Assembly (NCBI GenBank): GCA_958009085.1 | Contig: OY253674.1 | Span: forward strand, 310,001-374,000 | From: Protoeuglena noctilucae | Lineage: Eukaryota | Length of the DNA: 64,000 nt | Direction: 5' to 3' | Shown here: one piece after another, positions 43,433-62,867 of the stretch | Numbering within the stretch: position 1 is the first letter of the stretch | Layout of the letters: each line of letters opens with the position of its first letter | Position numbers and translations under genes: made by a program | The notes under the pieces: model-generated | Database searches by the model: none | The model's input: only the letters and a program-made list of their open reading frames with translations | Told to the model about the DNA's origin: nothing

Positions 43433-46400
43433 TTAGGTGTCCATGCGATCTGTGCGGCCCGCGTCAGAGCCGGGTCGACCCGCCTTGACACCGTGCGCCC
43501 CTCCCGCCGCGTGCCCTGCGTGCATGCAACGGCAGCACGTTCCCAAACAGTCAGCCCTTGGTCCCTCGCCTCAAAACCCCCGCGCCTCGCTCACCGTTCA
43601 TTTCCGATGACGAAAGCCCTCCACTCCGCGCCAGCACCGTCAGCGTCGCCTGGAGCGTGCGGCCCTGCATCGTCTTGACCGGCCCCTTCAGCAGGCGCAG
43701 CGCTGCAGTCAATCCCTGGGGCGCCAACCCGCCCTGCAAGCAAGCCACAGAGGCAGTGTCGAAAGCGACATCCGCTGGGCTCGCGCGGGCGGACTCTAGC
43801 GCCGCCGGCCCCCCTGCGCTGCTGCACTTGCCTGGTGCATGGCCCGCACGAGTGCATCTGCGCTCCATTCAGCGCGCCCCGCGTCCACCAGTGACGCGTT
43901 CGCCTGCCCCTCGCTCCTCAGCGCATCGTCGGCGGCATGGCGCCATCGGTCAAACGCCTGCGACCCCTCATGCAGGGGCCCCACCTCGCCTTCCAGCTGC
44001 AGCTCCGGAAGAGACACGTCCCCCAGGCCGCAGCGGAGATTCCTGCGCGCGAAACGACGCGGAGAATCTGCAGCTGCTGCAGCTGGCAACGTTTCAAGAG
44101 ACCTGTGCGGCTTTCAGGCTCCCCAAGTTCTCACCGGATGGCCCCTGCTGCCGATGCCTTCACGGCCAAAGATGCCTTCCCAGCCAGAGATGCCAGCCCG
44201 TCCAGAATGCGATCGGAGACGTACTGCGCGCTCAGCGAGGACATCTGCCTCCCTCCTGCGGGGTGGGCGAGTGGCGCAGGTGTGGGTCAGCGACGGAAAA
44301 CACTCAGCACGCATATAGCGCAAGAAACGCCCTGATGGGCCATCGGCCCTTGGCTGGCCTGTGCCGCGCGCGGGGCGCAGCTACGACGCACCTGCAACGG
44401 CACGCAGCGCCCCGGCCGCCCATGCAAACTGCACAAGGCTCTCTGTGGGCGCCTTGCGCATGCACGCGAGGAGCGCCTTGGCCGCCCACAGAGCCACCGG
44501 TGCCCCCCCGGCGGGCCCGCGAAGCGCCAGCTTATCTAAGACGCGCTGCATGCCCTTCTGCACCCGCTGCATGTGCACGTTGCCTGGGCCGGCCTCTGGC
44601 GCGGGCATCCAAATCTCGACCATCGCGTGGCACACGTCCTGGCAGTCAATGGCGCTGCGGGCGCGATCGAGAAGCGAGCGACGTGGCAGCGGCAGCGACA
44701 GGAAGCGCGGCGACGTCATCCACACAGCCCCAGACAGTGTAGCCGCCCGGACACGTGACTGCCCTACGCTCACCTGAGCTTGCCATCCATGTAGCCCACC
44801 GCGTCGCAGAGGAGCCGCAGCGCGGCCACGCGTGCGGCGTCGTCCCAGCGAACCCCACCCGGGACGACGACGGACAGGATGGCGCGGAGCAGGGGCGGGG
44901 AGAGGGACCGGCTGCGGTGAGGCCGCTTTGCCATCGCCTCCTCGAGACCCGGCAAGAGGCCCACCGAGTGCGCCGCCGACAGCACGGGTGCCATCAGACG
45001 CGTCAGCGCCGCCTGCAGCACGCTGGGCTCCCCCGGCACAGGCCTCTCGAGCACTTGCGCCATGGAGTCCAACGCATACACGGCTGAGGAGAGAAGGAGA
45101 TGATAACATGACATATGATGGCGACGGAACAGACATAGCGCTACGCTCGGAGCACTGAGCACTAAACTTGGCATGATTCGACCCTGGGGTTCGTGCCCGC
45201 GTGGCGCACTCACCGACAGCCTGGTCGTTGTGCGGCAGCTGCTGGGCGGCGGCCCCGAGGGAGTCGAGGAGGGGCAGGACGGTGGTGGACTGACGCGCGA
45301 CGACGGCGATGATCCCGAGCACCTGCGCATGCTGCGGGCCTCCGTAGGGGAGGTGCATGACGGCGCGGGAGAGCACCACGAGGGACTTCACGAGGGCCGG
45401 CACCGCAGCTGCAGGTGACAAGGGAGAGGGATGATGATAGTCCGACGCAGCGGCATGGGGCCACGACGCATGGTGACGCATGGCCACCCATCGCATCTCT
45501 TGCAGCGGCCTGCAGCCTCGCCTGCCGCCCCCAGCTTCCCAGCCTCCACCATCGTCCGATTCAAAAGGCTGGACGGGACGCTCCCGCGGCACGCACACTG
45601 CGCGACGTAGCTGGCCAGCGCGGCGAAGAGCATTGGACCCTGCCCGGCCTCCGCCAGCCCCCGTCGCATGGAGCCCAGGACCACCTCCCTGCATGCACAG
45701 CACACGTGGTACGTGAGCATCTCCCTGACAGCTCATAGCACGTTTGCCACGCCAGCTGCGTTACCATCAATCATACGCACATATTCAGCCACTGCCGTGG
45801 CCTTCACCTCAGCCCGGTTTTCTCCGCATCACCGTCTTCCCAGCAGCCCAGAGACCCCAGGCACCGCAGGGCGGCATCCAGGGTGAGGCCGGCGGCCGTT
45901 GGCGACATGCTGCACATGCTCGACAGGATGGATGTGGCCCGGACCGCGCAGTCTTGCCCCTCCGCCACCGTCTGGCCCCCGCCGCGCACGTTCGGGTGGT
46001 CCTGGCAGGCCTGCACCGTCGCCTCCACCAGCGCCGGCCACCCTGCAGAGCACACAACGCAGCAGAACCTCACGAGTCAACCAAGCTTCACTGCCGGACC
46101 CTGTCTCATCGGCGCGCCCCACGCTGACGAGCCCTCGCCTGTCGGCAGGTGTGCGTCGCGCACGAGGATGTCTAAGACACGGGCGACGACCTGCAGGGCC
46201 GTTCGTCGGCGGCTTTCAGGCCCGTCCATCTTCTGCATCAGGTACCCCAGCGACGGAATGAAGAGGTCCAGTTGGTCCGACCACCACCGCGATCCCTGGG
46301 TCTGCGAACGCGACCGCGGAGAGACTTCCATCAGACATGGCCACCTCCACCGTCTTCCCTTCGTACTCATGACACAGTCAGCCGTCCTCACGGCCGGTGT

Positions 46401-47212
46401 GCTTGCTCGCCTGCAGCGCCACGAACTCCTCCAGCAGCTGAAGGGCGAGGGTGTCGAGGAGCTCGACCTTGCGCTGCAGGAGGGCCCGGACGAGCGCAAC
46501 CACCTGCTGGCCCGTGAGCGGCGCCGCCTTGGTGTGGCACTGCAGGAGCTTGCTGTGTGCCACGACGGCCACCCTGCGACGGGCGCGAGAGCTGGGCGGT
46601 GGCCGAGCTCTCGGAGAGCCGGGTGAGCACTCGCGATGCCTGGCCGGGTCGCACAAAGAATCTCTCACCTCACGTATCCGAAACGCCCAGCCCGCAAGTC
46701 CCGCATGGCTCTCCTGTGCGGGGAAAGCACCAGCTCGCATCGTGCGGGCCTCCTCCAGCATCATGCACATCACCTCCGAGCGTCCTAGCAACGGACTTCG
46801 TCGCACCTGAATATTTTGCGGGATATCTTGGGGAAGCGGTCCGGGTTCACCTCGGCATACTCCGTCAGCTTCTCGATCGCGCGCACCACCTGTGGGAGAG
46901 ACAAGGACGTAGTTCGGACGCTCATCTTGCGAGACGGCCTGAGGGATCGGCAGATTCGCCGTCTTGAATGACTCGCTCGCACCGCGCGAGTCAGAGGAGC
47001 CCCGCAGGCGCCGAGATCCTCGACAGCGACGCGACTGCGCATAGTGCGACACGCAAGGTTCGTGCCAGCCTGCCCATCACCTTCGGCTCGAGGGCGCCCT
47101 CCACGGATGGTTCCTCGGGCGGAAAGAGTTGCGGGACCAGCTTGCGGTACCGCTTCGCCCGGCGGACGGAGGCCGGCTCCAAGCTAGTGCAGAGGAGACC
47201 AAAGCAGGGCAT
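43433..47212 (-). CDS. EFR3-like ARM-repeat protein (PI4K complex anchor family)
   Basis: Cys-containing N-terminus MPCFGLLCTSL, then AKRYRKLVPQLFP and IEKLTEYAEVNPDRFPKI. Many helical exons. The last exon (DRMDT*) is inferred. Confidence 0.8.
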
Positions 47213-55721: not shown

Positions 55722-56153
55722 CGGGCGAGGCCCGCTCTCTTCGCCCTGGGGCCCAGGGGTGCCGCGATGGGACGTACGCGTATCGCTGAGCTCAATTGGG
55801 GAAGCAAAGGCGGGGTATATGCGGCGATGCGGCGTCTGGAGGGCGGGGTTAGACAGTTGGGCAGGGCTGTGGCGGGCCAATGTGGCTGGCCAATGAAGCT
55901 GCGACACAGTCAGCGTGGACAAGGCAAGCTGAAGGATGTAGAAGTAGGCCCCGCGCTTTCACCAGGCTCGCTCAGTCGCTGGCACCCGACAGCTTGCGTG
56001 TTGCCGCTTTGCTGGAACGAAAGCCTCGTCATTCAACCGGCCTGTGACGCATCCCAGGCGATGATGCCGTAGCTGCGCGTCAACCGCTCCCCGGGCGACC
56101 TTGGTAGCGCCTCTTGAGCCTCGCGCGTCACTCAGACTTGGCATGCGGGGGCT

Positions 56154-56755
56154 ATGCCGCGGCGCTGGATTAAGATACTCAGCTCCGACGGCTTTGAATT
56201 CTATGTGGACTACGAGGCCGCGTGCGTGAGCAATGTTATCAAGGCGTCCCTGAGCTCGGCAGGTGCGTTCGTTGCATCGCGGGGCCGTGGGCGCGGTGCG
56301 CCGCCTGAGGCTGCATAGCATGCCCCGCAAAGTGCGCTGTTTCGTGTCCCGAATTTGGCGCCCGTCTGCACCCGCGCTCGTGGACGCCAGGCGCTCGGGG
56401 ATCGTCCTCGCAGGCACCTTCACAGAGACGGAGGAAGGGACGTTCCCGGCGGGCGACATCCCTGGCGAAATCCTCGAGCGCGTGTGCCAGTACATGTACT
56501 ACAAGCTGAAGTACCGAAACACCCCGCCGGACCAGATCCCGGAGTTCCACATCCCCCACCGCCATGGTGCGTGTCACGCCGCGCCCTCCAGTGTGACTGG
56601 CGGCCCGCATCTAAGAGCGAACGGCTTGCGAAAGAGTGATGGAGCTGCGGGGCATGTCGTAGCAGTGCGTCGCATCTTGGGCCGGGCGAGCTCTACTCTT
56701 TTCTATGCATGCAGCCCTTCCACTTCTGATGGCCGCCAACTATCTCGACATCTAG
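56154..56755 (+). CDS. ELOC: Elongin C
   Basis: WIKILSSDGFEFYVD...ACVSNVIK, ILERVCQYMYYKLKY, IPEFHI and LLMAANYLD. Three exons. Confidence 0.93.
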
Positions 56756-56942
56756 ACAGCCCGACACTGCTCCCGTGTCGCCAAGAGGCCATGGCAGCGT
56801 ACAGCAGCCCGCGGCGTCCGCGGTTGGCGCCGGCTGGGGATTAGCCACGTCAGGACGTGCCTCACCTGCGCTCTGGATCACCCCGGCTGCCGGCATCGGC
56901 TGCAGTTGCCTGTGTTCGCGGCGCGTCGTCCATTGAATATCC

Positions 56943-57269
56943 ATGTCACATTTCGTTCGGCCCCACAGCTCTTTTGCTTTCCTGCGGCCGGCGTTCGAAG
57001 TCGTGGTGGCCAAAAAAGGCAGCAACAAGTCGAAGGCGCCGGCCAAAGGGGACCTCCCTACGAAAGTGTGCGCGGTGTGCGGGCGGACCTTCACTTGGCG
57101 CAAGGCGTGGGCCAAGGTGCGAGTTGCAGCGTGTGCGAGGTCCCCAGCATCGCTCCGCGAGAGACTCAGGTGCTCGCTTGGCTCGGCAATGCAGGTTTGG
57201 GACGAGGTGAAGTACTGCAGCGAGCGCTGTCGTAATCGGCGCAACCAAGCCGCCGGGGAGCGGGCGTGA
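56943..57269 (+). CDS. DUF2256-family small Cys-rich protein
   Basis: KGDLPTKVCAVCGRTFTWRKAWAK|VWDEVKYCSERCR, with intron 57117-57194. Confidence 0.9.
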   Translation: MSHFVRPHSSFAFLRPAFEVVVAKKGSNKSKAPAKGDLPTKVCAVCGRTFTWRKAWAKVRVAACARSPASLRERLRCSLGSAMQVWDEVKYCSERCRNRRNQAAGERA

Positions 57270-57304
57270 ACCGGCGACGCCAGAGGCTGAGGGCTGGGTT
57301 TGCC

Positions 57305-58749
57305 ATGAGCTTCGACGAGCTCAAGCTGAAGGAGAAATTCATGGTCCTTAGGCCCCACATGGTGAGCCGTCGACGGATTGCAGCGCGGACGGCGCAGGTT
57401 CTTGATTCGAGGTCTGCATGGTCTCCCTCCGTCTCCGTCTGGGCCCCGCAGGGCCTGCGTCCGTCGCAAGAGTCGGTCGAGATCGTTTCCAAGTACTGCC
57501 TGTTCCTGCGCACCCAAGCGAAGGACGTCGCGCGCGTCTGGGAGCAGGCAGTCACGGCGGTGCGGCAGGGGTGCCGCCAGCCGCCCCGCCCGGCCCCGCC
57601 CGCCCCGACTGATGGCTTGCGACAGCAGCCTCGCCTCCCTCTCTTCCGCAGAGCGCACCGCCGCAGCAGCTGCTGCTCGCCTACCTGGCCAACGACATCT
57701 TGCACAAGGGCCGCCGCCGCGGTGTCGAATTCCTGGATGCCTTCTACCCCGTCCTGCTGCGCACCTTGCCCAAGATGCTGGCGGCGGCGAACCCCGCCGT
57801 GCGGCAGGAGCTCGTGCGCATCGTGCAGATCTGGATTGAGGTCAAGCACTTCGGCAACACGGGAACCAAGGCCCTGCAGGACATTTTGACGGCAGGGGGC
57901 TTGAACGGCCAGAGCGCTGGTGCCGAGGCGCGAGGGGGGACCGCCGCACCTGCGCCCGCACCCGCCCCTGCCTCCGTGCCGGCCCCGCGGGACCCCCGAG
58001 AACCCCGGGGCGACGCTTGGGACGACACCCTGGCTGTGGTGGCAGAGAGGACGGCGGAGGCACGGAAAGCATCGGGGCACGCCCGGCAGAGGTGCGGCTT
58101 TGCTGCGAGCGAGTCGGAGCATGGCTGTGTCGTGCGGCTGGGTGGGTCAACGCGTGTTTGTCCGGCGTGGCCCCCCAGGTTGTTACGGGCGGAGGGCGCT
58201 GACGCCGCCAGGTTGCGTCCAGAGTTGGAGGAGGCGGCGGCTGCATCCGCCGCGGAGGTGGCGGCTTGGGAGTCACTCGGGGAGGTGGTGCGAGAACTGG
58301 CGCAGATGCAATCGCAGGCGCTTGCAAGGGTGAGGCTCGTGGCCTGGTGCGGGCGGAGGCGCATGTTCCCTTTGCTCTACGGCATCGTTGCTGAGCCGCT
58401 ACCAGCAGCATGATGCTTGAGCCTCGCCTCGTCGACTTTGCCATCGCAGGCTCGGAGCGTGCGAGACGAACTGCGACGGAAGATTGCAGCCGCCGAGGCG
58501 ACCGCTGGGGCTCATGGGGTGGATGGGCATGTGGGGGAGTCGCGTTCAGGGGAGGGTGTGAGCCCTGCGGCAGAGGGAGCTGCGGCGGAGGTGGGTGCGG
58601 CACAAGCAGGGGTGGCGGAGGCGGCCGATGGGGAGTACAGTCCGGATGAGCCGGTGCTGAGGTCAGAGCACGCTGGGGAAGCAGAGGCGAACGATGTGCG
58701 GGATGCAACGGACGATGGGCCCAGCGAGAAGAGGCAAAGGACGGAATGA
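57305..58749 (+). CDS. CID (RNA Pol II CTD-interacting) domain protein, RPRD1/Rtt103-like
   Basis: MSFDELKLKEKF...ESVEIVSKYC...VARVW, LLLAYLANDILHKGRR and ELVRIVQIWIE, followed by a coiled coil. Confidence 0.85.
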
Positions 58750-59015
58750 CGCGGCTGGCAGGGATATTGTTAAGAGCGCTTAACAACAGCATAGTGCGTT
58801 GACTGAGAGTGTCTTCACGACCGCGCGCTGCGTCTATGTCCATCAATCGCCGGCTTGCATTCGGCAGTGCATCGCATGCCGGCGGCAGGGAGCGAGCAGG
58901 AGGTGCTATCAGGCATGTGAAGATATTCGTGCGATTTGCGAGGCCGAAAGTGACCCGGTCAACGCTTTTTGCGGACCAGTTGTGGCATTCGAGCGCCATG
59001 CACGCCCTGGTGACC

Positions 59016-62000
59016 TCAACTCTCCGCACGAATCATCTCCACCAGCTCCTCTAGCGTCAGATCGCTCGTATCCTCCAGCCGCAACGCCAGCCGCTGCTGC
59101 ACAGCCCTGCTGACGACGCCAGAACGCAGCACGGGTCAGCGACGCGAACCACCAGACGCAAGCTGCCTCGTCGCGTGCCCTTCACCCTTGCGGTCCGCAT
59201 GCTCGAGCACACGTCGCGACTGCACAGACCCGTGCAAGACTTGGGCGGCTTGTCAAAGTGCGACCCTCACCTGGGCACGGGGGCTCCCTGGAATCGGTGG
59301 AAGGCCACGTGAAGGTCCTTAACCATGCTTTTGAAATAGCGGAGCTCCGCGGGGTACTGCAGGAGGGTGCAGGAGGTCGGAACGTGATGAAAAGAGCGTC
59401 GTGTTGGACAGGACACACGAGCTGTGAACCGAACCCGTACAGTGAGGTGCCCTGGCCGTCTCAGCCCCGGCTCACCAGGGCGAGCTGCTCTCGGATGTCG
59501 TCGGCGCGCTGCAGGGCCTGCTGGTGCTCGGGCGAGAGGTAGGTGACGTCGCCGTCCATCATCTGCAGCTCCTTCAGGGCCTCGACGATGCGTGCCCGGG
59601 TCTCGAGCCCTCGCAGGTACTCCAGGCGGGGCCAGGTCATCTGGCACAGGTGCTGCGCGGCGTCGGGATGCATCGACACCGAGATGCGCACTTGCTGGCG
59701 GGCCGCCGTGGCCAGGCGGGCAAGCACCTCGCGGATGACCGCCAGCGCCGCGAGGTTGTCGGACCGGATGACGCAGATGCCCTGCTTGTAGGTGCACACC
59801 ATGAAGCTCCTGCGGAAGGGGCGGGCCACATCTGGCATTGCTAAAGAGAGACTGGGAACGCAGCAGGTAGCATGGGGCACACGGAAGTATGTGGGTCGGG
59901 GCGACGGGAGACCTGAGCGAGGTTGGTGCAAGCGCGGGGAGTTTACTCATAGCACAGCTTCGCCCACCTGACGAGGCAGGAGCGGAGCGCGAGAGTGGCC
60001 TCCGCTGTGCCCGAGGGCGCCCGCGGCACCCCCTCCACGGCCTGCCCGATCCAGGCGTGCATGTCGAGAATGCTGAAGTTGCCCTGCATCCGGAGCTCGC
60101 TGAAGGGCCGGGACTGGTCGACCTCCTCCACGCTCGCGGGGACGTGGAGGCTGCGCGGAGGACGCAAAGGCGCGGTCGAGGCTCAGGCTGGCACAGGTCC
60201 AAAATGCGTAAAAGCTGACATCATGTTGCACAGCCCAGCGTTGGCTCTCACCAGAGGGGCTTGATGGGCATGCTAAAGGTCTGGGTGACTTTGTTGTCCA
60301 CGCCTGCGACGACGAACACCTGCAGCCGCCCGCTGCGGCCCTCGATGGCCCGGATCCGGAGGTGGGCCCTCGTGGCGTTGCCCTTGCACCGCAGCGTGGC
60401 GAAGCTGGCCATGTCCTCGCCCCCACTCTTCCCGCACGAGAGGATGCCATCGTCCGCCCCCGGGTCCTGGATCTCGATCTGGCACGTGCAGTGCAGCACG
60501 ACCACGGCGACCCCGTCAGGTGACTCCACTACCAGGTTGAAGGCCCCCTCGGACTCATCCAGCGTCAGCGACGCCTCGCTGCGGGAGGCACGGCGCATCG
60601 CGGACCTCAGGCATTGGCGGGGATCGCAGATGCTGCCGGTTGTGACCAGAGCCGCATCACGTGCGACGCGGACGGCAGGCCAACGGGGCTGCCATGGGCT
60701 TGCCACGGGCCGGCACTGCACATGGACGCTTTGTGAGACAAAGGAAGGTAAGCCAACACCCGCAGGCAGGCGTTTTGGCACTCTGCACCACCCCAGCCAC
60801 GCACCTATACGAGACAGACGAGACGACCACGCCCGGGGTGCTCTTGAGGACGGCCAGCACCGCCGTGGCGTGCTGGACGCGCTGCTCCAGGCCAGCGACC
60901 TCCATGGACAGCGCCCTGTGGCAGGGTGAGATGTATGGATGTGTGTCGGATATCAGATGTCACCATGAAATGGGTCAGCCCATGTTGTCAGAAACAGCCT
61001 CACTTGATGCGGTTCTCTTGCTCGTTGATGTCCGTGGTGTCCGCGTCCTCCTCGTCCTCTCCCTCCTTGGCATCTCCAGACTCGTCGCCCGGCTTCATCG
61101 ACTTTGTGGACATGAGCTTCTTCACCATGCTCAGGCCCTTGAGCGCGTTCATGCCCTTGCGGCCCGCGTCCCTGCGAGGCACGAAACGAGGTCCACCGTC
61201 GGCATACAAAGGTGTCATTAAGTTCGACTCCTGCATCGCTCTGCTGTCAGAGCCTCTGCAGATGCGAACGGCGCCTCACCGGAACTTCTTGGAATGTGCG
61301 ACGTCCACCACGCTCTCCGTGCCCACCACAAGCACGCGCCCCCGCACGGTGTGGACGCACAGCTCGTCGCTGGTGCTCCCGCCGGTGATACAGCCGGAGT
61401 CGACGCTCCCGGCGCTCTCCCTGCAACGAGCGCGGATGCCTCACGATGCGCTATTCGCGCACAGCCCAGCGTTGCTCCCAGTTAGCGGGGCGACGTGCGA
61501 AGCAACGAGCTAGCGGGCCGGCACAGATGCGCCGGCGACGCTGGCCACTGCTGTCGCTCACCCCATAGCGTGTTTCGCAATACGCTCCATCTGCCCCATG
61601 TCGTCACGCGCGTACACCTCCAAGTCGCCCCCTTCCCGCGCAATCACCACCTCCTTCATCCCGTCACGCGTTAGGTCCGCCTGAGTGTGGATCTGCAGGA
61701 AGAGGCACCCGCCACGCATTCCGACCCGCAGGCAGGGCACGGAGCGCACGAGCAGGTCATTACATGCAACAAACGTGCCCCCCGCGGAGTGCAGCCCCTG
61801 GCTCCGTCATCGCACATCGGCATCTCAGGCATCCGCAACCATCCGCACTCACCTGCGTGACGGGTGCTGGCTTGAGCCCCTTCCCCGCGATGACCCATCC
61901 GCGCCGCGCTGCCTGCTCATCCAAGAACATCTGCGCCACGACGCCCGTCTGCGTGCCGTACACGACCTCCTGCCGCCCGGCGTGCTTGTTGCCCGGCAGC

Positions 62001-62867
62001 GTCTCGATGCCCTCCCGGTTGTGCACGAGGGCGGTCACCGCGCCCTCGACTTGTGCGGAGTAGTACACGTCACCGTCCTTGAGAACCTGAATCTTGCCGT
62101 CTGCGCACCCCAGCATGGGCCAGTACGGCTGGCCCTTCCCGGCCACGGGCGCCACGTCAAAGGCCGAGATGCGGGTCAGCGACAGTTTCGGCGGGTGGAC
62201 GTCGTTGCCGTTGTTAACGAGCTGCACCGACTGCTTGCCGCACACGTGCACGAAGGTGTCGTGCACCCGCGCGGACACCACGTCCTCGTCCATCCTGCAG
62301 GGAGCGAAGCGCGGGTGCAGCTGAGATTTCAAGGGTCGCATGGACCTCAAGGCAGCTGACGACACAGGCGACGTGGCTCACTTGGGAAACCGGATGCGGA
62401 AGAACTCCTTGCCCTTCTTGGTAACCCCGCGGACCTGCCTGCCCTCCGCGACGAATATCTTCGTGTCCTGCTCCTCGCCAAGGCCCTGCAAAGGGCGGAG
62501 CAAGGCATCGCGACCTTGGATGCGCGGATGCAGACGCGGCGGAGGGTTGCAGCCCCGCGACCTGAGCGGCCAGTCACCAGACTGATGTTTGTGACGGGCG
62601 CGTTGGTAGGGAGGCTCTTAAAAGACGTGTCGAGTGCCATTTTCTTCACGCTGAAGCAGTGGACCGTGCCCGAGACGTCGCCCACCACCACCTGCGGGCA
62701 GCCAGGTACGCGTATGGGCACAGAGCGCGGCGCAGCGTCGTCAGATCGGCGGCGGAGGCGCGGGTCGCCTTTTGCGTCTTGTTCTTCCCCGGTGGGAGGA
62801 CGCGCATGCAACCCGGGCCCGCGACATTGGACGAAAGGATCTCCTGCTGATGCAGGTTGATCTCCAT
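59016..62867 (-). CDS. BBS7: Bardet-Biedl syndrome 7 protein (BBSome subunit)
   Basis: QK|VVVGDVSGTVHCF, KIFVAEGRQVRGVTKKGKEFF, LRIRAIEG, IKPL, LQGNFS-like MQGNFSILDMHAWI and SDNLAALAVIREVL. Confidence 0.93.

What the first reader, a model, noticed from the sequence alone, without database searches (positions are those of the whole stretch)
56943..58749. Candidate bicistronic mRNA: DUF2256 upstream of a CID protein, with a leaky-scanning signature
Seen in sequence: only 35 nt separate the DUF2256 stop (57269) from the CID ATG (57305), leaving no room for a terminator plus promoter. After removing intron 57117-57194 there is no ATG in any frame between the two start codons. The first ATG has a weak context (TCCATGT) and the second a stronger one (GCCATGA). 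Established: polycistronic nuclear mRNAs with short upstream ORFs occur in green algae. Inference: both proteins are made from one mRNA by leaky scanning, coupling an uncharacterised Cys-rich protein to a Pol II CTD factor.
Basis: partly seen in the sequence, partly recalled or inferred. Interest (0 to 1): 0.75.

Follow-up and report, generated by a model that had tools for sequence, protein, structure and literature searches.

The report
Probable two-protein algal messenger RNA
In a marine green alga, a small zinc-finger gene sits 35 bases in front of a gene for an RNA polymerase II partner, and both proteins are probably made from one messenger RNA, a new example of an arrangement already known in green algae.

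Summary
The coordinates are right. An 82-aa DUF2256 ORF (56943-57269, one intron) ends 35 nt before a 351-aa RPRD1/Rtt103-type CID ORF (57305-58749). No ATG lies in the 281 spliced nt between the starts (chance 0.025-0.084). RNA contigs confirm all five introns. One contig runs through both ORFs, but it also runs through both neighbours, so it does not prove one mRNA. The host is a green alga whose 3' flanks are enriched in TTGAA, not TGTAA. One TTGAA lies just before DUF2256, in the 3' flank of the upstream Elongin C gene, and none follows the DUF2256 stop for 632 nt. The Kozak contrast points the right way but is weak. A related alga keeps the CID start but has no DUF2256 upstream, so functional coupling is unsupported. 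The same genome holds a tricistron-like locus (83-aa membrane ORF, LYR, ZIP). Verdict: probable bicistron read by leaky scanning (0.65). It is a new member of the known green-algal class, and I did not find it in two published lists. Long reads are still needed.

The parts
56154..56755 (+). Elongin C gene (100 aa; exons 56154-56262, 56414-56566, 56715-56755); upstream neighbour, read as a separate mRNA
   Evidence: introns joined in 4 of 4 RNA runs; exon 2 matches Elongin C chains in PDB, E 2.5e-5; Skp1_POZ E 0.00095, under the cut-off; model
56791..56844 (+). 17-codon ATG-started ORF in the Elongin C 3' flank; one of six ATGs between the Elongin C start and the DUF2256 start
   Evidence: sequence; context 80th percentile, 40th with the self-trained matrix
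56933..56937 (+). TTGAA, candidate poly(A) signal of Elongin C, 10 nt before the DUF2256 ATG
   Evidence: motif statistics on 664 kb; function inferred, not shown
56943..57116 (+). DUF2256 exon 1: ATG, about 24-aa S/F/R/A/V-rich N-terminal extension (possible organelle presequence), first CxxC
57117..57194 (+). 78-nt in-frame intron holding the only ATG (57189) between the two starts
   Evidence: spliced in 4 of 4 RNA runs; donor 72nd, acceptor 22nd percentile
57195..57269 (+). DUF2256 exon 2 with YCSERC and the TGA stop
57270..57304 (+). 35-nt inter-ORF spacer: no ATG, no TTGAA, not a multiple of 3, no credible splice acceptor
   Evidence: covered by RNA contigs
57305..58749 (+). RPRD1/Rtt103-type CID protein, 351 aa; exons 57305-57361, 57452-57559, 57652-58091, 58179-58329, 58450-58749
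   Evidence: introns joined in 3, 4, 4 and 4 of 4 runs; open frame; CID E 3.4e-11; start and intron 1 conserved in the relative; orthologue matches RPRD1A E 1.8e-13, RPRD1B, Rtt103
57901..57905 (+). first TTGAA downstream of the DUF2256 stop, inside CID exon 3; possible alternative end
   Evidence: RNA contigs of 4 of 4 runs pass through it
59016..62640 (-). convergent BBS7 gene; internal control showing that contigs fuse separate transcripts
   Evidence: Pfam BBS7 domains; model; contigs across both stops in 4 of 4 runs

Best explanation
One Pol II transcript starts shortly before 56943, in the 3' flank of Elongin C. It is spliced at five introns and ends beyond 58749. Scanning ribosomes meet the DUF2256 AUG first. 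Its context is poor (U at -3 and +4), so some pass it. They find no other AUG for 281 nt and start at the CID AUG (G at -3). The mRNA thus gives an 82-aa treble-clef zinc-finger protein, probably sent to an organelle, and, at a lower rate, the nuclear RPRD1/Rtt103-type CTD-binding protein. ORF1 acts as a large uORF that sets the CID dose; the two proteins need not work together. Shown: both ORFs, all introns, the ATG-free path, RNA cover across the spacer, protein families. Inferred: a single molecule, the position of the start, TTGAA as poly(A) signal, leaky scanning, localisation.
For: Green alga: nuclear RbcS at two loci, 21 LHC matches, LHCII-type best hits. ORF1 249 nt, spacer 35 nt, ORF2 1056 nt against medians of 291, 40 and 1185 nt for A. 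protothecoides bicistrons (PMC11291117). ATG-free path: 18 of 43 rows of the A. protothecoides list and 6 of 35 of the C. reinhardtii list have none (hand tally, summed), against 0.025-0.084 by chance here; likelihood ratio about 2-17. A spliced contig bridges both ORFs in X1 (shown) and, by back-calculation from binned depths, in X4 (about 57230 onward); X3 covers 56919-57330, only 26 letters into CID. TTGAA is the top 5-mer in 202 3' flanks (z 5.1), 49 sense vs 193 antisense in CDS, 55 vs 25 in tandem spacers; none lies between the DUF2256 ATG and 57901. The same genome has a second tight locus: 83-aa ORF, 12 nt, LYR, 13 nt, ZIP, with one TTGAA after the last stop.
Against: Contigs show no molecule, strand, start or end, and they fuse CID with convergent BBS7 in 4 of 4 runs; all four runs are one study, three samples. 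97 of 203 genes lack TTGAA within 400 nt of the stop, CID among them, so its absence after ORF1 is weak. The Kozak matrix comes from my own de novo starts and is noisy; Elongin C scores as low as DUF2256 (7th vs 13th; 3rd vs 3rd percentile self-trained). An ATG-free ORF of 50 aa or more ending within 60 nt of a start occurs at 8 of 201 genes, most looking random. DUF2256 scores below non-coding under the codon model (LLR -6.3). X2 has unexplained cover in the two bins spanning the intron and spacer, which could be retained intron or RNA starting inside DUF2256. The pair is not kept in the one relative.
Confidence: 0.65

Rival explanations
1. Two overlapping monocistronic (or partly polycistronic) units: CID has its own start inside the DUF2256 intron or exon 2, and the DUF2256 3' UTR runs into CID.
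For: The genome is compact (one gene per 2.8 kb). The TTGAA 10 nt before the DUF2256 ATG implies that the Elongin C 3' end overlaps DUF2256, so tandem overlap probably occurs at this very locus. X2 has unexplained cover over the intron and spacer bins. Partly polycistronic loci are as many as fully polycistronic ones in C. reinhardtii (PMC7896298). A TTGAA lies at 57901.
Against: Gives no reason for the ATG-free 281 nt. Spacers of 40 nt or less are rare (4 of 84). No TTGAA within 632 nt of the stop. Contigs of 4 of 4 runs pass 57901.
Confidence: 0.2
2. One mRNA, but CID is made mainly by reinitiation after the DUF2256 stop.
For: The spacer is only 35 nt; PMC11892635 says some reinitiation cannot be discounted (passages).
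Against: The same paper notes that reinitiation is best after uORFs of a few codons and found in reporters that stronger ORF1 context lowers ORF2; ORF1 here is 82 codons.
Confidence: 0.08
3. A tricistron Elongin C - DUF2256 - CID from the start near 56075.
For: One X1 contig runs from 56075 through all three ORFs; only 187 nt separate Elongin C from DUF2256; a tricistron-like locus exists in this genome.
Against: Six ATGs lie between the Elongin C start and the DUF2256 start in spliced RNA (positions), one in a fair context at 56791; TTGAA at 56933 follows Elongin C; the same contig also fuses BBS7.
Confidence: 0.04
4. Alternative splicing joins DUF2256 exon 1 to the AG before 57284, in frame with CID, giving a fusion protein.
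For: The AG at 57282-57283 is 21 nt before the CID ATG with no stop between.
Against: Acceptor score -6.3, below essentially all predicted acceptors; no such joint in 4 runs, though contigs drop rare forms.
Confidence: 0.03

Closest known systems
Nuclear bicistronic loci of green algae read by leaky scanning (Gallaher et al. 2021, PMC7896298; Duenas et al. 2025, PMC11892635 / preprint PMC11291117)
   Same: Short conserved ORF1, very short spacer, longer ORF2, no AUG before ORF2, weaker ORF1 context, no poly(A) signal after ORF1, unrelated partners.
   Different: This pair was not found in either paper's supplements. The host does not use UGUAA (9 of 240 3' flanks). No long-read, ribosome or proteome evidence here. 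The pair is not kept in the one relative seen.
DUF2256 (PF10013), TRASH clan zinc fingers
   Same: All four Cys and the W-R, W-D-x-V-K-Y-C-S core are invariant across 10 sequences; weak fold matches to the FCS finger (Z 3.9, rmsd 3.9, 40 aligned) and YacG (Z 3.8, rmsd 2.7, 39 aligned); clan per PMC4047054.
   Different: Nuclear, intron-split, with an N-terminal extension that the shortest bacterial forms lack; function unknown for the family.
RPRD1A/B, Rtt103 (CID plus coiled coil)
   Same: N-terminal CID with the YLAND motif; the orthologue P0011 matches RPRD1A, RPRD1B and Rtt103 structures; two of its homologues carry CID plus a sub-threshold CREPT match.
   Different: CTD binding not tested; encoded as a probable second ORF.

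Membership tests
Green-algal exclusively polycistronic loci | Host is a green alga | tested here: met
Green-algal exclusively polycistronic loci | Single full-length transcripts span both ORFs (Iso-Seq) | tested here: inconclusive
   short-read contigs bridge in X1 and by back-calculation X4, but also fuse BBS7; no long reads offered
Green-algal exclusively polycistronic loci | Promoter mark at ORF1 only (H3K4me3 or TSS) | not testable with these tools
   no ChIP or CAGE data; contig ends are a lead only
Green-algal exclusively polycistronic loci | No poly(A) signal after ORF1, signal after ORF2 | tested here: inconclusive
   no TTGAA after ORF1 until 57901, but none in the CID 3' flank either; 97 of 203 genes lack it
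Green-algal exclusively polycistronic loci | Both ORFs translated (proteomics, Ribo-seq) | not testable with these tools
   both are conserved, spliced and have one Pfam-matching locus each; translation not shown
Leaky-scanning bicistrons | AUG depletion before ORF2 | tested here: met
   0 ATG in 281 nt; chance 0.025-0.084
Leaky-scanning bicistrons | ORF1 context weaker than ORF2 | tested here: inconclusive
   13th vs 35th and 3rd vs 42nd percentile, but noisy matrix and Elongin C equally low
Leaky-scanning bicistrons | Short ORF1 and short spacer | tested here: met
   249 nt and 35 nt vs medians
Leaky-scanning bicistrons | Pair conserved in other algae (common, not universal) | tested here: not met
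   one relative, three contigs with upstream DNA, no DUF2256 before CID
DUF2256 (PF10013) | Score over the curated cut-off, four Cys | tested here: met
   77.9 bits vs 25
RPRD1/Rtt103 CID proteins | N-terminal CID nearest to RPRD1/Rtt103 | tested here: met
   for the window; for the orthologue P0011
RPRD1/Rtt103 CID proteins | Binds the phosphorylated Pol II CTD | not testable with these tools
   inferred from family

The most novel reading that the evidence does not exclude
The conserved thing is the second position, not the partner. The RPRD1/Rtt103 gene stays behind an AUG-free upstream ORF while that ORF is swapped: DUF2256 here, an unrelated ORF in the relative (ATG at L004:492, 348 nt without another ATG, 36 nt or after splicing 12 nt before the CID start, 4 of 6 strain differences synonymous). 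A transcription-termination factor would then be dosed by leaky scanning, in a green-algal lineage that uses UUGAA instead of UGUAA and also builds tricistrons.
Probability: 0.15. Interest if true: 0.65.

Novelty: new member of a known kind. Interest (0 to 1): 0.4.

Why it matters
It would extend nuclear bicistrons to a green-algal lineage with a different 3'-end signal and add a pair missing from the published lists. It warns that gene finders drop such first ORFs: my own predictor missed DUF2256. The mechanism itself is published, and the two proteins show no conserved link, so the locus is an example, not a new principle.

Tried and rejected
Contig ends as a map of RNA ends: back-calculated DUF2256 contigs begin at about 56919 (X3, X4) and 56922 (X2); Elongin C contigs stop at 56859 (X2, X4) and 56943 (X3), with no listed cover at 56860-56918 in X2 and X4; at the DUF2256/CID border the ends scatter (57222, 57257, 57330; starts 57230, 57300). 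This fits a start about 24 nt before the ATG and no separate CID start. But it is one study, 62 rows of the table were not shown, no DNA run was laid, and sequence variants could break contigs in the same way, so it is a lead and is not counted as evidence. TGTAA as poly(A) signal: rejected (9 of 240 flanks). Stop read-through fusion: the frames differ. Longer DUF2256 N-terminus spliced from 56791: no joint. Viral DUF2256 loci: none of 16 candidate stretches. TFB5 as positive control in the genome: nothing rang, controls included. The search for SDHAF3 returned another LYR gene, so the TOM22-SDHAF3 pair was not tested. The relative's upstream ORF: no Pfam, no match in this genome, no usable Atlas hit and pLDDT 0.27, so it is unconfirmed as a protein. 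DUF2256 homologues P0004 and P0007 lie on contigs of 2.4-2.5 kb whose DNA I could not read. Lineage below 'green alga' was not fixed: the LHC homologue search timed out. Papers: DUF2256 appears in 3 papers, 2 listed, neither on algal bicistrons; searches for polycistronic plus Pedinophyceae, bicistronic/RPRD1/uORF and UUGAA plus polyadenylation listed nothing on this pair or motif, by listings only. No complex prediction was run, as no binding is claimed.

Full report
Observation. DUF2256 runs 56943-57116 and 57195-57269 (82 aa). A 35-nt spacer follows, then the CID ORF 57305-58749 in five exons (351 aa). The only ATG between the starts is in the intron; the 281 spliced nt have none. Contigs of four marine metatranscriptome runs (4 of 4 RNA holders among 12 runs listed; three samples, one study) match without differences. 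They show the DUF2256 intron in 4 of 4 runs and the CID introns in 3, 4, 4 and 4 of 4.

How unusual. I built a simple gene finder and ran it on 664 kb of contig C7 (240 genes). It reproduced the Elongin C, CID and BBS7 introns seen in RNA but missed DUF2256, and its starts are unverified. Same-strand spacers have a median of 478 nt; 4 of 84 are 40 nt or less. An ATG-free first 281 nt occurs in 5 of 203 genes, and ATG-free tiles in 53 of 1135; a recoding null gives 0.084. Published bicistrons are ATG-free in 18 of 43 rows (A. protothecoides, two loci listed twice) and 6 of 35 (C. reinhardtii), by hand tally. That is a likelihood ratio of about 2-17. Against this, ATG-free ORFs of 50 aa or more end within 60 nt of 8 of 201 predicted starts, and DUF2256 is the only one I recognised. 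The start contexts differ in the expected direction (13th vs 35th percentile; 3rd vs 42nd self-trained), but Elongin C scores 7th and 3rd.

Host and proteins. Nuclear RbcS at two loci, 21 LHC matches and LHCII-type best hits make the host a green alga; I could not place it more finely. ORF1 is DUF2256, one locus in the genome, in the TRASH clan per PMC4047054 (one passage). Its model (pLDDT 69.7) matches FCS finger and YacG weakly (Z 3.9 and 3.8). Its N-terminal extension suggests an organelle presequence; that is inference, as no predictor was available. ORF2 has the only CID match in the genome, and its orthologue is nearest RPRD1A/B and Rtt103.

RNA across the spacer. One X1 contig of 4810 nt runs from 56075 through Elongin C, DUF2256, CID and on into the convergent BBS7 gene. 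By back-calculation from binned depth, an X4 contig starts near 57230 and crosses the spacer into CID, and an X3 contig covers 56919-57330; X2 is unresolved. So the spacer is in spliced RNA. Contigs cross the CID/BBS7 junction in 4 of 4 runs, so continuity does not show one molecule. Contig ends hint at a start near 56920 but are a lead only (see Tried and rejected).

3'-end signal. TGTAA, the signal of most chlorophytes (PMC1868727 and PMC6413133, passages), is in only 9 of 240 3' flanks. TTGAA is the top 5-mer in 202 flanks, reaches 1.77 and 1.47 per kb on the two strands of convergent spacers against 0.14 in sense CDS, and is strand-biased in CDS (49 vs 193) and tandem spacers (55 vs 25). 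It follows 106 of 203 stops within 400 nt, against about 10% expected from the intron rate. One copy sits at 56933, after Elongin C and 10 nt before the DUF2256 ATG. None follows DUF2256 until 57901. With six ATGs between the Elongin C and DUF2256 starts, this argues that Elongin C is a separate mRNA. It also implies that its 3' end overlaps DUF2256, which weakens the 'no room' argument. CID has no TTGAA in its own 3' flank, so absence is weak evidence.

Relative. A metagenome scan with the CID homologue P0011 gave 4 loci of one species, three with upstream DNA. The start (MSFDE) and intron 1 position match the window, which confirms ATG 57305. Upstream is a divergent TFIIB-type gene and no DUF2256. 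Between them lie a 14-codon ORF and an ORF from L004:492 with no further ATG before the CID start. Of 6 differences between L003 and L004 there, I read 4 as synonymous (alignment). It has no family or fold support. So the DUF2256-CID pairing is not conserved in the one test available.

A second locus. A search for a LYR family landed on G000:C6 near 665 kb: an 83-aa membrane-type ORF whose spliced product is on record (P0166), 12 nt, an 84-aa LYR ORF, 13 nt, a 367-aa ZIP transporter. The 529 spliced nt between the first and third start hold only the LYR ATG, and the only TTGAA on that strand of the 3.2-kb locus lies 10 nt past the ZIP stop. Its contexts are not weak-to-strong (77th, 13th, 42nd). 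It suggests the architecture is native to this genome; it was not tested on RNA.

Comparison with what is known. The class is published: PMC7896298 (passages; supplements searched) and PMC11892635 / PMC11291117 (abstract, first part of Results, passages, first parts of four supplements). DUF2256, CID and related terms gave no hit in 7 of 7 supplements of either paper or in the annotation tables. Many ORFs there are unannotated and long cells are cut, so an unnamed match is not excluded. The InterPro numbers were recalled. PMC11529991 (passages) does not mention UUGAA for algae. Earlier scan notes list similar pairs in other genomes and none for this one.

Verdict. Probable bicistron read by leaky scanning (0.65); overlapping or partly separate transcripts 0.2; reinitiation 0.08; tricistron 0.04; fusion splice 0.03. 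New member of a known kind; interest 0.4.

Noticed in passing
G000:C6 about 664,080-665,960, minus strand (L027:2074-193): Tricistron-like locus: 83-aa membrane-type ORF without Pfam match (its intron holds its only internal ATG), 12 nt, LYR protein, 13 nt, ZIP transporter, with a single TTGAA after the last stop.
   Followed up: partly
genome-wide, 664 kb of C7 sampled: TTGAA, not TGTAA, behaves like the poly(A) signal in this green alga; a paper search listed no such report.
   Followed up: partly
L004:448-842 (also L003, L006): In the relative, the CID start is preceded by a 14-codon ORF and a 104-codon ATG-free ORF, or a spliced short ORF ending 12 nt before the start; strain differences cluster there and are mostly synonymous.
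   Followed up: partly
window 56143-56232: An out-of-frame ATG 11 nt before the Elongin C start opens an overlapping ORF of about 29 codons; Elongin C's own context is weak and exon 1 holds a TTGAA at 56194.
   Followed up: no
window 57117-57194: The DUF2256 intron is in frame and stop-free; retention would give a 108-aa form with the domain interrupted (P0001 on record), and its ATG 57189 is in frame with exon 2. X2 has unexplained cover here.
   Followed up: partly
window 58750-59015: CID and BBS7 are convergent, 266 nt apart, with RNA cover across the whole gap in 4 of 4 runs, so their 3' UTRs probably overlap.
   Followed up: no
G000:C7 353,433-357,212 (window 43433-47212), 673,933-674,952 and 385,720-387,241: Other predicted same-strand pairs 46, 31 and 14 nt apart; may be split models or further bicistrons.
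   Followed up: no
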